Of a stretch of 64,000 nucleotides of DNA, positions 27,292 through 47,282 are shown piece after piece (the stretch's first letter is position 1; each line of letters begins with the position of its first letter). A program made the translations under genes and the position numbers. The DNA lies in NCBI GenBank assembly GCA_029858305.1, contig JAOUFI010000001.1, positions 160,001 to 224,000 of the forward strand. The letters are read 5' to 3'. The notes beneath the pieces were generated by a model. The model made no database searches. It was not told the DNA's origin and was given only the letters and a program-made list of their open reading frames with translations. The DNA comes from Candidatus Thorarchaeota archaeon. GTDB lineage: Archaea > Asgardarchaeota > Thorarchaeia > Thorarchaeales > Thorarchaeaceae.

Positions 27292-27432
27292 TGGTGGGCC
27301 GGCCCGGATTTGAACCGGGGATCCCTTGGATTCTTGCGGGCTTGGGCAATGCCAAGCGGCGACCCAAACCAAGAATCATTTTTGGCAACCGGTCACGAGT
27401 GACGGATTGTAGCCAAGCTAGACCACCGACCC
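27292..27432 (-). tRNA. tRNA-Pro(TGG) with two introns: D-loop 27380-27410 (31 nt) and 37/38 at 27331-27362 (32 nt)
   Basis: Removing both gives a 78-nt cloverleaf (CTTGG-TTTGGGT-CCAAG); BHB central helices TTGG/CCAA and TTTG/CAAG. Confidence 0.9.
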
Positions 27433-27480: not shown

Positions 27481-29175
27481 TCAAGGACAGATTCCAATGA
27501 TGACTCCTTGATATGGCGCAAGATGAAGTTTGGATTCGTTGAGTGTGTCTGTATCACTTATGGTCGAGAATAGTAGTTTAGGATTCTTCCCAATTTCACT
27601 TACGTAACTTGGTTTTTTAGAGAAATTCAACCAAATTTGTACTACTTGTTCATCGTATATTCGTTGGTAAGAGAGGAAGTTACCAAATAGAGATGGAGGT
27701 AATAGATTCAGTGATCCTGAATGAAGAGCTGGGGTTTCTTTACGGAGTTTCAGGAGAGCCTTGTAACAGTTCAATAGGGAATCTGGATTAGACTCTTCTG
27801 AGTCTACATTGATTGTTTCATATCCAAGACTTACTGGGAGCCAGGAGATTGATTTGTCAGAACAAAAACCTGCATTTGGTGATGAAGTCCATTGCATTGG
27901 AGTTCTGCAATCATCACGATTCAGAGAGATTGAACCACTTCGTGTTAGTAGATTAACAATAAATTGAGGAAGCCAGCTATACTTCAGAGCTACAGGATCT
28001 TGTGCGTTTCTTAAAGGGATTCTATGATTTGACATTCCAACCTCTTCACCATAATAGATGAAGGGAACTCCTCTTGCTGTTAGTTGCAACATCACGTTGA
28101 TTTTTGCCTTGTTCACGTCATTCCCTAATTTACTAATACGACGCATTTGATCGTGGTTAGAGAATACCCAGGTCGGAGAGTAGGGCTCTATAAAGTATTG
28201 TTCATATCTACTGATTAAGTTACGAAACGTGTTTGCATCAAATCTTGCATTGAGAGATTGGAAGAGGAATGTCAAATGAAGTCCATTGGTCTTGATATCA
28301 TCTATTTTTTCGCCACAATACCTCTTGAGCGTTTCAAGTGATGCTGCTATTTCGCCAACCAAGAACCTTTCGGGATCTGAATATTCATCCATCACACTTC
28401 GAAGTTCTTTCGCAAAGGCAAAATTGTCAGGATGATTGACAGTGTATAACTTATTCTGGAAGAAACTTTTGTCATGCTCCTCGGAAGGAAAGAATGTTAA
28501 GGCAAATGGATTATTTTGAAGACTCTCATCTTCAAACACCGTATTGATGATATCTAAACGAAACCCATCGACGCCCTTATCCAACCAAAAGCGAAGAGTA
28601 TCAAACATCTCTTGCTTCACTTCAGTATTGCGATAGTTTAGATCTGGTTGAAAGGGAAGAAACTGAGCCCAGTACCATTGGTCAGTCTGTTCATCATAGT
28701 GCCATCCTGAACCTCCTACAATCGATTTCCAGTTGTTTGGAGGTTTCTTACCTCTTGGCTTTTGGCCATCACGCCAAATGTACCAATTGCGCTTCGGATT
28801 ATCCATACTCGACCGTGATTGCAGGAACCAAGGGTGTTGATTGCTAGTATGATTGAGAACCATATCAAAAACCACATACATGTCGCGATTGTGAATTTCC
28901 TGTATGAGCCTTTCACAGTCACTCATGGTTCCATACTCAGAAGCAATACTTCTGTAGTCACTGACATCATACCCATGATCTGCTTGAGGACTCGAAAAGA
29001 ATGGTGAGAACCAGATTGTTCCAACTCCCAAATCCTGTAGATAGTCTAGTTTTGAAATGATTCCTGGAATATCTCCAATTCCGTTGTTTGTACTATCCTT
29101 GAAACTTCGTGGATAAATCTGATATACTGTGGTCGTCTTCCACCAAGGTAGGAATTTAATAGAAGATGTCACCAC
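27481..29175 (-). CDS. GH13 alpha-glucosidase / oligo-1,6-glucosidase
   Basis: YQIYPRSF, DMVLNHTS, DGFRLD, VGE, SNHD, RDDCRTPMQW. Confidence 0.93.
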   Translation of the reverse strand: MVTSSIKFLPWWKTTTVYQIYPRSFKDSTNNGIGDIPGIISKLDYLQDLGVGTIWFSPFFSSPQADHGYDVSDYRSIASEYGTMSDCERLIQEIHNRDMYVVFDMVLNHTSNQHPWFLQSRSSMDNPKRNWYIWRDGQKPRGKKPPNNWKSIVGGSGWHYDEQTDQWYWAQFLPFQPDLNYRNTEVKQEMFDTLRFWLDKGVDGFRLDIINTVFEDESLQNNPFALTFFPSEEHDKSFFQNKLYTVNHPDNFAFAKELRSVMDEYSDPERFLVGEIAASLETLKRYCGEKIDDIKTNGLHLTFLFQSLNARFDANTFRNLISRYEQYFIEPYSPTWVFSNHDQMRRISKLGNDVNKAKINVMLQLTARGVPFIYYGEEVGMSNHRIPLRNAQDPVALKYSWLPQFIVNLLTRSGSISLNRDDCRTPMQWTSSPNAGFCSDKSISWLPVSLGYETINVDSEESNPDSLLNCYKALLKLRKETPALHSGSLNLLPPSLFGNFLSYQRIYDEQVVQIWLNFSKKPSYVSEIGKNPKLLFSTISDTDTLNESKLHLAPYQGVIIGICP

Positions 29176-29255
29176 GGAAGATACCTCATATGATTTAAAT
29201 TACAACTGCCTCATTTCTCTTCTTATTTCGTTATTGATTAGCAGCACACCCAAGC

Positions 29256-29543
29256 ATGAATAAGGTCATAATGGATATACAATTGTTGAAGGTGAGTAAC
29301 ATGAGCTTGCTAGGACCAGATGATTTCGACCTTGATGAAAAAGGAAGAAAAAAGAAACTTGCACATGATCTCTCTCCGGATGTAGCTAAAGAGATTGAAA
29401 AATGGCTTGAGAAAATCGATACTCCTCTCGCATTTGAGAAAATTGCGGAACTGATAGGACCGGAAGAGGCTAAGAGGCTGATTGGAGAGCGTACAAGACA
29501 CGGGAGAAGAATAAAACCGGGAGACCCTTGGGCTCTAGAATGA
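29256..29543 (+). CDS. Hypothetical protein
   Basis: 95 aa charged ORF; start may be at MSLLGPDD after GGTGA. Confidence 0.55.
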   Translation: MNKVIMDIQLLKVSNMSLLGPDDFDLDEKGRKKKLAHDLSPDVAKEIEKWLEKIDTPLAFEKIAELIGPEEAKRLIGERTRHGRRIKPGDPWALE

Positions 29544-29676
29544 AAGGAGAATAATATGACACGTGATTGATGATACAAAGTATGGGAGAACACCTCGCAC
29601 TTATATCAGGGTGACTAATATAGAGAGAGGAACAATTAGGCAGAGCCACACAAGTGTAGTAGATTCACCGATATGA

Positions 29677-29955
29677 TCAATCTTTCTTGTTTTCCCAGAA
29701 GACTTTGGCCTCTTCTTCAAGCTTGTCGAGACGATCATAATAATCAGGAAATTCATTGAGGTGAGCAAACGCAATCTTTCCTGTCGTTAGAGAATCATCA
29801 TTCGTAACATTGGTAACTCTGTTGCGTTTACCATGCTCGAGTTCAACATCCATCCCCTTTCTAAGTTGCTCAACATCAAATCTATCCCATTTTATACCGA
29901 GCTTTTCACCTATAATTTTGGCTTCTGCTATTGTGAAGGATTTCTTTGAAGGCAT
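29677..29955 (-). CDS. DUF5661-like small protein
   Basis: GMDVELEHG...TGKIAFAHLNEFPDYYDRL. Confidence 0.75.
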   Translation of the reverse strand: MPSKKSFTIAEAKIIGEKLGIKWDRFDVEQLRKGMDVELEHGKRNRVTNVTNDDSLTTGKIAFAHLNEFPDYYDRLDKLEEEAKVFWENKKD

Positions 29956-30022
29956 ACACGAATCGCGTACAAACTGGGCTTTAGCATTTTGGAGTAAGAA
30001 TATCATAGGAAATGTGAAGAAA

Positions 30023-30047
30023 AAGTGGATTCCCAGGCGAGATTTGA
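30023..30047 (-). repeat. att-like copy of the tRNA-Thr 3' end (intron-less form)
   Basis: aagtggattcccaggcgagatttga versus tRNA aagtggagccccaggcgagatttg (30467-30490); 2 mismatches in 24 nt. Confidence 0.8.
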
Positions 30048-30148
30048 TAGGAGGACTTTCGCGTTCTAATATAATTTCTTGCGTTGTGCGAAATCAGCAA
30101 TAAGCAGCAATCAGGTTTCGGAACTATTGATTAAAAGAGGAAAGAAGA

Positions 30149-30463
30149 ATGAGAACGAATTTAAAAATCACAGTTGTGAAAACATTCACTCCTGAGGATG
30201 TATTTGGTCCAAATCACGGTATTACAAGAAATGGTCAACCATTTATTCCATGTGATCATAAGGAGGGCGAAGAGTTTATTGTAAACAATCAATATGAGAA
30301 ACCAGAGGGATTCTGTGAGCGAGCTTGGCAGGATCTCTATTCAACAATAATGGTCTATTATCATGGTGGGGACTATAGATTTCCCTCGCCTGGAGCAACA
30401 TACCAGCCATGCGGGGACGGAGTAAACCCTGTTGTCTTCAAGATAGAGAAGCTGGAAGATTGA
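30149..30463 (+). CDS. TIGR04076 family protein
   Basis: KITVVK...C...G.EF...PEGFCERAW...CGDGVNPVVFKIE. Confidence 0.8.
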   Translation: MRTNLKITVVKTFTPEDVFGPNHGITRNGQPFIPCDHKEGEEFIVNNQYEKPEGFCERAWQDLYSTIMVYYHGGDYRFPSPGATYQPCGDGVNPVVFKIEKLED

Positions 30464-30469
30464 AAGAAG

Positions 30470-30577
30470 TGGAGCCCCAGGCGAGATTTGTTCCACGTTG
30501 AGAGAATCTCAGCGTGTTTGAACTCGCGGCCTCCTCCTTACCAAGGAGGCGATCTAACCGGTCTAAGCTACTGGGGC
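30470..30577 (-). tRNA. tRNA-Thr(GGT) with a 30-nt T-loop intron (58/59; 30488-30517)
   Basis: GCCCCAG/CTGGGGC acceptor; CCTCC-TTGGTAA-GGAGG; BHB helix GTTC/GAAC with 3-nt bulges. Confidence 0.92.
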
Positions 30578-30667
30578 TTTTCTATGACATCCACAAAAAG
30601 AGGTGTCATTCGGATTTCGCTTGAGGAGTAGAGATAAAGATTTCGTCTATGTCAAATTTGGAAAATA

Positions 30668-46516: not shown

Positions 46517-46632
46517 GCCGAGGTAGCCAAGCCCGGACCACGGCGCCGGTCTTGAAAACCGGTGTGTTCGCACCCACGAGTTCAAAAAATGTCACAATTT
46601 GTGATATCGAGCATATCTCGTCCTCGGCGCCA
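46517..46632 (+). tRNA. tRNA-Ser(TGA) with a 29-nt T-loop intron (58/59; 46586-46614)
   Basis: GCCGAGG/CCTCGGC acceptor; CCGGT-CTTGAAA-ACCGG; long variable arm; BHB helix GTTC/GAGC; G73-CCA. Confidence 0.92.
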
Positions 46633-47260: not shown

Positions 47261-47282
47261 TCAAATCTAACCCTCGGCGCCA
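47261..47282 (+). repeat. att-like copy of the tRNA-Ser 3' end (intron-less form)
   Basis: TCAAATCTaacCCTCGGCGCCA versus spliced tRNA TCAAATCTcgtCCTCGGCGCCA (19/22). Confidence 0.75.

What the first reader, a model, noticed from the sequence alone, without database searches (positions are those of the whole stretch)
30023..30577. tRNA-Thr T-loop intron lies inside an att-like core; one-gene islet closed by an intron-less tRNA copy
Seen: a 24-25-nt copy of the tRNA-Thr 3' end lies 444 bp away and brackets one TIGR04076 gene. On the tRNA strand the copy begins TCAAATCTCGC, which fits the spliced T-loop (one base better than the intron-bearing gene), and the 30-nt intron falls at 58/59 within that stretch. 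Known: tyrosine integrases commonly cross over in the tRNA T-loop/3' half, and tRNA introns have been proposed to block such integration. Inference: this is a relic of an integrated element (no integrase left), and the intron either postdates integration or interrupts the target site.
Basis: partly seen in the sequence, partly recalled or inferred. Interest (0 to 1): 0.7.

Follow-up and report, generated by a model that had tools for sequence, protein, structure and literature searches.

The report
tRNA-Thr gene-cassette stack tolerates intron
The one-gene islet behind an intron-containing threonine tRNA gene of an Asgard (Thorarchaeota) archaeon is one unit of a stack of swappable single-gene modules joined by copies of the tRNA's tail, and the intron does not appear to stop modules being swapped there.

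Summary
In detail: tRNA-Thr(GGU) at 30470-30577 (-), a 30-nt intron at 58/59, a tail copy 444 bp away (22 of 24 bases) and one TIGR04076 gene between. The reading needs changing. The intron's last three bases rebuild C56-A58, so the shared core is whole in the intron-bearing gene, and the 'one base better' fit is chance. The islet is one unit of a changing cassette array: 24 of 37 scored relatives carry cassettes here, 13 are empty, and four cassette pairs occur in both orders. Contigs from two other studies carry the same intron with an extra cassette joined at the core. T-loop introns are not enriched for copies (2 of 5 against 8 of 25 tRNAs here). No recombinase was found in this 89%-complete genome, and none of 20 family integrase regions holds a tRNA end. 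Best reading: cassette exchange through short tRNA-tail identity by a host enzyme (about 0.5); rival: visiting integrases (0.3). Some cassette ends carry intron-bearing tRNA fragments and may move introns. The scan noted such arrays earlier at other Thorarchaeota tRNAs and rRNA tails; the intron test is what this adds.

The parts
30470..30577 (-). tRNA-Thr(GGU) gene, CCA encoded; anchor of the array
   Evidence: spliced form called by ARAGORN, 78 nt
30488..30517 (-). 30-nt T-loop intron at 58/59; its last three bases repeat exon positions 56-58
   Evidence: bulge-helix-bulge pairing; homologous introns in G001 25/30, G013 24/30, G003 20/30
30470..30490 (-). Shared core (C56-A76 equivalent) as it stands in the unspliced gene; point where cassettes join
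   Evidence: contigs of X2, X4, X6 leave the window at 30490, and at 30467 just past the CCA
30149..30463 (+). Cassette A cargo: TIGR04076 protein, 104 aa, antisense to the tRNA
   Evidence: the 10 tRNA-Thr-linked copies form one clade, support 0.90
30079..30088 (-). Conserved closing junction of cassette A (CG|CAA); a perfect tail copy follows it in G022, while here the retained copy lies about 35 nt further on
   Evidence: alignment of 10 genomes
30023..30047 (-). Copy of the tRNA 3' end, 2 mismatches; joint between cassettes A and C
29677..30006 (-). Cassette C cargo: DUF5661 protein (likely start near 29955); first in the array in G026
29304..29543 (+). Conserved small backbone gene beyond the array; the weakly DUF202-like backbone gene that lies before it in most relatives is missing here

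Best explanation
The 3' end of tRNA-Thr(GGU) is the docking site of an additive gene-cassette array. SHOWN: each unit is one small gene (either strand, with its upstream region) closed by a copy of the last ~21 bases of the tRNA gene; units are gained, lost and reordered between relatives exactly at these copies; in the intron-bearing gene the core is intact because the 58/59 intron ends in the same three bases as the exon; alleles with this intron differ in their first cassette. INFERRED: a unit excises as a circle by a crossover between two successive tail copies, moves between cells as DNA and re-enters by one crossover at the tRNA core, 3' of the intron; the host keeps its 5' part and intron, the unit supplies the new tail, and the old tail is displaced. 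INFERRED, least certain: the crossover is made by a host enzyme that works on short identity (RadA-type recombination or an unrecognised host recombinase with a bias for the T-loop), not by an element-borne integrase. Units whose end carries a long, intron-bearing tRNA fragment could add or remove introns when the crossover falls further 5'.
For: Array: 24 of 37 scored alleles filled, 13 empty (state assigned by hand). Both orders seen for A/C (G000 vs G026), A/B (G011, G026 vs G005), B/D (G008 vs G026) and A/E (G072, G088 vs L196). The backbone resumes after the last copy as after the empty tRNA. Cassette A of G000 is 62% identical to that of G007, its nearest relative on the downstream-gene tree, whose downstream genes are 80-97% identical. 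Intron tolerance: in X4 and X6 the tRNA contigs match the window's intron (X6 record 28: 30467-30542, 0 differences) but continue past the CCA into the end of a G026-type TIGR04076 gene (21 of 21 letters for X4). In X4 the contig holding gene A continues at 30490 into a G011-type closing junction (20 of 22 letters). G011 and G014 share the same two introns but carry A|B and D; G019 and G022 share a 59/60 intron but carry B and A. No element enzyme: PF00589, PF00239, PF00078, Cas1 and PF16795 give no match in G000, and a profile of 11 family integrases hits only zinc ribbons. 36 of 60 family genomes have no PF00589 match. 0 of 20 integrase regions of up to 16 kb hold a tRNA 3' end. Generality: copies follow 11 of 35 tRNA genes found by script plus Ser and Leu genes it missed, none lies upstream, and a similar repeat array follows the 16S 3' end. 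Copy length runs from under 21 nt to nearly whole genes.
Against: No circle or excision product was seen; only contigs were available, and the extra cassette is read from 30-letter loose ends. The 5' ends of copies cluster at T54-C56 (33 of 45 rows extend 6 bases or fewer 5' of A59, mode 5). That is the T-loop overlap of classical tyrosine integrases and is not predicted by plain homology. About 21 bp is short for homologous recombination (recalled). G000 is 89% complete, so an enzyme may be missing from the assembly. A dampening effect of the intron is not excluded: two or more intact copies occur in 0 of 6 T-loop-intron alleles against 4 of 10 alleles without a T-arm intron (p = 0.23; three of the four are one clade). 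The 59/60 introns do not restore C56.
Confidence: 0.5

Rival explanations
1. Same array, but moved in trans by tyrosine integrases of visiting viruses or plasmids that cross over in the T-loop; cassettes are carried along and left behind (tandem accretion, cis-mobilisation).
For: Copy 5' ends cluster at the start of the T-loop, and a few at the anticodon arm, the two symmetric sites that integrases use (PMC8371274 passages). Insertion is polar. PF00589 is present in 24 of 61 family genomes. Intron-containing tRNA genes are known targets: 10 of 39 in Thaumarchaeota (PMC6563490 passage).
Against: None of 20 integrase regions holds a tRNA end (the one ARAGORN call lies inside an integrase ORF; several regions are cut by contig ends). 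No matching attP in 2.9 million viral contigs: 0 exact hits, and 1 unrelated phage tRNA-Arg. At least 13 tRNA specificities plus the 16S tail would be needed in one genome that has no integrase.
Confidence: 0.3
2. One reading: a dead relic of one integrated element, with the intron arriving later or blocking the site.
For: The window's copy has 2 mismatches and lies about 35 nt beyond the conserved end of cassette A; cassette C has no clear closing copy. Long fresh arrays were seen only in alleles without a T-arm intron. Randau and Soll's blocking idea is cited in PMC3293823.
Against: Four order conflicts; same-intron alleles with different first cassettes; an extra cassette at the core in X4 and X6; no enrichment genome-wide.
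Confidence: 0.08
3. RNA route: splicing endonuclease and ligase join transcripts at the T-loop, and reverse transcription writes them back, so introns and cassettes arise by one process.
For: Introns at 53/54, 58/59 and 59/60 and the copy boundaries fall in the same arm.
Against: No PF00078 match in G000. Some copies keep introns (G024, G005, G026; Leu-CAA in G000). Cassettes lie on both strands and include upstream regions. The 30 bases before the window's copy do not resemble 58/59 introns (7-10 of 30).
Confidence: 0.05

Closest known systems
Additive flexible genomic islands at tRNA/tmRNA genes (Alteromonas; PMC4898812, passages)
   Same: [quoted passage not shown]
   Different: Here the units are single genes of 0.4-0.6 kb, the host is an archaeon, many tRNA genes and the 16S tail are used in one genome, and the target carries changing introns.
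tRNA-targeting integrated elements of archaea (tyrosine integrase, attL/attR; PMC8371274 and PMC6563490, passages) and tandem accretion / cis-mobilised elements (Pavlovic 2004, Bellanger 2011; seen only as titles in PMC5812530)
   Same: 3' part of the tRNA duplicated, boundaries at T-loop or anticodon arm, tandem reuse of one site, intron-containing targets allowed.
   Different: No integrase in the unit, at the locus or in the assembly. Thaumarchaeal cryptic elements start at 2.6 kb and encode an integrase. Family integrases here are not at tRNA genes.
Integrons and cassette arrays (recalled, not read)
   Same: Stack of one-gene cassettes, reordered, with polar addition at a fixed site.
   Different: No IntI; the joint is a copy of the host tRNA tail, not an attC hairpin; cassettes lie on both strands.
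Intron gain at tRNA-Thr(GGU) through an inserted element in Caldiarchaeum (PMC3293823, parts 1-2 of 5 read)
   Same: Same tRNA species, population-level intron variation, tRNA fragment flanking an insert.
   Different: There a 1.9-kb element with a putative recombinase and a 5' fragment; here recombinase-free one-gene units with 3' fragments, some carrying introns.
Intron-rich tRNA genes of Asgard archaea (PMC11291895, passages)
   Same: Non-canonical and multiple introns are common.
   Different: The passages seen do not mention tail copies or cassettes.

Membership tests
Archaeal intron-containing tRNA gene | Bulge-helix-bulge at the exon-intron joints; removal gives a cloverleaf | tested here: met
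   4-bp central helix, two 3-nt bulges, 2-bp exon helix; spliced gene called tRNA-Thr(ggt)
Archaeal intron-containing tRNA gene | Splicing in vivo | not testable with these tools
   no RNA run available
Additive flexible genomic island at a tRNA | Same chromosomal site empty in some relatives, filled in others | tested here: met
   13 empty and 24 filled of 37 scored
Additive flexible genomic island at a tRNA | Cassette number and order independent of phylogeny; tRNA-part repeat after cassettes | tested here: met
   four order conflicts; copies at joints
tRNA-integrated element (tyrosine integrase) | Direct repeat of the tRNA 3' part at the distal end | tested here: met
tRNA-integrated element (tyrosine integrase) | Integrase gene or remnant in the element | tested here: not met
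Cis-mobilisable element / tandem accretion | A cognate integrase-bearing element uses the same site | tested here: not met
   none in the Thr loci mapped, none at 20 integrase regions, no attP in viral contigs; sampling is incomplete
Integron | IntI tyrosine recombinase next to attI | tested here: not met
   no PF00589 match in G000
Integron | attC hairpin sites between cassettes | tested here: inconclusive
   joints are tRNA-tail copies; the stretch at the copy folds no better than shuffles (z = +0.97); no attC model was run
Casposon | Cas1-family casposase and terminal inverted repeats | tested here: not met
   no Cas1 in G000; no inverted pair at the cassette ends among the 25 of 28 pairs shown

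The most novel reading that the evidence does not exclude
Thorarchaeota run a host-encoded, integron-like gene-capture system that uses the tails of tRNA and rRNA genes as universal docking sites without any element integrase. The same traffic swaps 3' halves of tRNA genes and so delivers and removes introns, which would explain why this one tRNA changes intron state between sister species, and would show that T-loop introns are passengers of, not barriers to, integration.
Probability: 0.3. Interest if true: 0.85.

Novelty: new variant of a known kind. Interest (0 to 1): 0.55.

Why it matters
It gives a natural test of the long-standing idea that archaeal tRNA introns protect against integration. 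At this locus a T-loop intron sits at the edge of the joint and cassettes still come and go, because the splice geometry rebuilds the core. It also adds population-level evidence that Asgard archaea exchange single genes through tRNA-tail arrays with no recognisable integrase, which points to an unidentified recombination activity. Intron-bearing cassette ends offer a concrete route for the rapid intron turnover of Asgard tRNAs.

Tried and rejected
Recombinase hunt in G000: five families and a home-made integrase profile, all negative; the weak profile hits were zinc ribbons. Integrases next to tRNAs: 0 of 30 short loci matched G000 tRNA tails and 1 of 30 had an ARAGORN call; 0 of 20 longer regions held a tail, and that one call proved to lie inside the integrase ORF. 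attP in viral contigs: none; the one hit is a tRNA-Arg in a 27-gene phage tRNA cluster. No RNA holder listed. No solved structure resembles the TIGR04076 protein by sequence. Split-tRNA reading: the stretch 5' of the copy is unstructured and unlike the intron. Cassette as a giant spliced intron: the copy is not preceded by the bases needed for the central helix (by eye). TIGR04076 as a general tRNA-linked gene: 2 of 30 top family loci and 0 of 3 other G000 copies checked lie near a tRNA tail; only the Thr-linked clade does. An IQ-TREE run timed out and FastTree was used; deep nodes are weak, and the markers lie within 10 kb of the hotspot. Rows dropped or known to be wrong: one false tRNA (C158) and two genes at contig ends, the 45 rows include two real Arg(GCG) genes, one chance match (G021) and two loci anchored on a copy, 11 of 48 alleles were not scored (other neighbours, another locus or contig end) and the script missed the variable-region intron of G066. 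Literature searches listed no paper on tRNA-tail cassette arrays in Asgard archaea; the library lacks most subscription journals and no supplements were read.

Full report
1. Observation. The window is part of G000 (3.04 Mb, 205 contigs, 89% complete). The closest named relative of the islet's protein is in a Thorarchaeota MAG (80% identity, L196). On the minus strand a tRNA-Thr(GGU) gene spans 30470-30577. Its T-loop holds a 30-nt intron (30488-30517). G53-C56 pairs with four intron bases, both bulges are three bases long, and cutting after the second base of each puts the intron at 58/59; the spliced 78-nt gene is called by ARAGORN. A copy of the tail lies 444 bp downstream (22 of 24 bases), with no other match within 3 mismatches in the assembly and about 1e-7 expected per 5 kb. 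Between them is a TIGR04076 gene. A contig of run X1, which may be the source sample, covers 29017-30579 without a difference.

2. The intron does not cut the shared core. The central helix fixes a C three bases before the 3' splice site, and the two bulge bases are A. So the intron ends in the same three bases as exon positions 56-58, and the unspliced gene still carries the whole C56-A76 core. This holds for all 7 alleles with a 58/59 intron (G000, G001, G003, G004, G010, G013, G021), but not for the three 59/60 alleles. The window's copy extends 3 bases 5' of A59 against the gene and 4 against a spliced allele.

3. The locus is a cassette array. A search of 61 genomes and fetched regions gave 48 tRNA-Thr(GGU) genes; 37 could be scored: 24 filled, 13 empty (states assigned by hand). 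Recurring cassettes are A (TIGR04076), B and D (unnamed proteins, membrane-like by eye), C (DUF5661) and E. Orders include A|C (G000), C|D|A|B (G026), A|B (G011), B|D|E (G008), B|B (G016), B|A (G005), A|E (G072, G088) and C...E|A|A (L196). Four pairs occur in both orders, so deletion from one ancestral array cannot explain them. After the last copy, four filled alleles resume with the sequence that follows the tRNA in two empty ones. The ten Thr-linked TIGR04076 genes form one clade among 35 sequences (support 0.90) and end at a conserved CG|CAA junction. G000's gene is only 62% identical to that of G007, its nearest relative on the downstream-gene tree, whose downstream genes are 80-97% identical. 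In G000 the retained copy lies about 35 nt beyond that junction and opens cassette C, so the islet is the first of two units.

4. Intron state and cassette state vary independently. Filled/empty counts in the genus: T-loop intron 6/0, T-stem intron (about 53/54, typed by pattern) 4/1, no T-arm intron 8/2; Fisher p = 0.53. In the family: 6/0, 7/3, 11/10; p = 0.07. Kin are not independent. G011 and G014 share two introns but carry A|B and D; G019 and G022 share a 59/60 intron but carry B and A; G000 and G007 both carry an A-type cassette but have different introns. In runs X4 and X6 (two other studies) the tRNA contigs match the window's intron (X6: 30467-30542, 0 differences; X4: no difference at the intron positions listed) but leave the window just past the CCA and run into the end of a G026-type TIGR04076 gene. 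In X4 the contig holding gene A leaves at 30490, exactly the C56 position, into a G011-type closing junction (20 of 22 letters); X2 and X6 contigs also stop matching at 30490. So an extra cassette sits between the intron-bearing tRNA and cassette A in near-identical populations: one gain or loss happened at the intron-bearing core. This rests on contigs and 30-letter loose ends. Genome-wide in G000, downstream copies follow 2 of 5 scorable T-loop-intron genes, 1 of 3 T-stem-intron genes and 8 of 25 with an intact T-arm (p = 1). Against full neutrality: two or more intact copies occur in 0 of 6 T-loop-intron alleles and 4 of 10 without a T-arm intron (p = 0.23).

5. Some cassette ends carry introns. 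G024 has, 140 bp behind its intron-less gene, a fragment from the anticodon stem onward with two introns. Its stem differs from the functional gene and its sisters G008 and G016 are intron-less, so the fragment looks imported. G005 and G026 have fragments with the T-stem intron (0 of 2000 shuffles score as well; G011 60 of 2000). All of these lie directly before cassette B. In G000 the Leu(CAA) copy includes its intron. The copies are therefore DNA-level, and a crossover 5' of such an intron would add or remove it. The direction cannot be read from these data. PMC3293823 (parts 1-2 of 5 read) proposed intron gain through an inserted element at the same tRNA in Caldiarchaeum, and cites Randau and Soll for the blocking idea (not read).

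6. Mechanism. Copies follow 11 of 35 tRNA genes found by script, plus Ser and Leu genes it missed, always downstream. G014 shows such arrays too. A repeat array also follows the 16S 3' end on the window's contig (lead from an earlier scan note). Cargo is ordinary accessory genes. No tyrosine or serine recombinase, reverse transcriptase or Cas1 was found in G000. PF00589 occurs in 24 of 61 family genomes, but none of 20 integrase regions holds a tRNA end, and no attP was found among viral contigs. This favours a host activity working on short identity (0.5). On the other side, copy 5' ends cluster at T54-C56 (33 of 45 rows within 6 bases of A59, mode 5; a random stretch reaches 5 in about 1%), with a few at the anticodon arm. 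These are the sites described for tyrosine integrases (PMC8371274 passages), so visiting integrases remain a serious rival (0.3). Circles and the enzyme are inferred, not shown.

7. Comparison and verdict. It works like the additive tRNA islands of Alteromonas (PMC4898812 passages) and meets their two tests. It fails the enzyme test for tRNA-integrated elements, integrons and casposons. Intron-containing tRNA genes are known targets in Thaumarchaeota (10 of 39; PMC6563490 passage), and intron-rich tRNAs are known in Asgard archaea (PMC11291895 passages). The passages of PMC11529989 seen do not describe such arrays. Seven searches listed no paper on them in Asgard archaea; supplements were not read. 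Earlier notes of this scan describe the same kind of array at other Thorarchaeota tRNAs, rRNA tails and nrdD; these are not independent support. New variant of a known kind; interest 0.55.

Noticed in passing
window 46517-46632 (+) and 47262-47282 (+): tRNA-Ser(UGA) with a T-loop intron, missed by ARAGORN, and a decayed tail copy 650 bp on, bracketing one gene. Here the intron does not fully rebuild positions 56-58 and the copy fits the spliced form two bases better.
   Followed up: partly
window 27292-27432 (-): A 141-nt tRNA gene with long inserts (Pro-like by its 5' end) that ARAGORN miscalls as Ala; the genes before it (amylase, other glycosidase, TnpB-like or none) vary between relatives.
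   Followed up: no
G000:C34:45911-49983 (L073): Between the real Arg(CCG) and Arg(GCG) genes lie one short copy and two nearly whole tRNA gene copies with altered anticodon or acceptor stem, separating small genes.
   Followed up: partly
G000:C91:7390-11615 and C69:11100-12624 (L075, L074): tRNA-Lys with two introns and three tail copies; two more copies of the same tail at the end of C69 suggest the array continues across the contig break.
   Followed up: partly
G000:C205:128860-137716: At least seven copies of the sequence just behind the 16S 3' end, spaced 0.5-2 kb.
   Followed up: partly
61 family genomes: 37 of 61 genomes, including several over 95% complete, have no PF00589 match, so a conserved XerA seems to be missing or very divergent in this family.
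   Followed up: no
L032 (G001), L033 (G013): The two alleles whose introns are closest to the window's have a TnpB-like gene (PF07282) or its remnant right behind the tRNA and rearranged neighbours.
   Followed up: partly
run X2, window 30008-30490: Cassette A has about twice the depth of cassette C, and a more distant contig (about 85% alike) joins at 30024: a hint that two species share a nearly identical cassette A. A G004-like intron variant is also present in this run.
   Followed up: partly
L063 (G005:C42): A divergent, intron-less tRNA-Thr(GGU) at another locus in a genome whose array (L150) lacks its anchor at a contig end.
   Followed up: no
G000:C43:222-299 and C113:8309-8386: Two identical tRNA-Glu(UUC) genes, one at a contig start: a real duplicate or an assembly artefact.
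   Followed up: no
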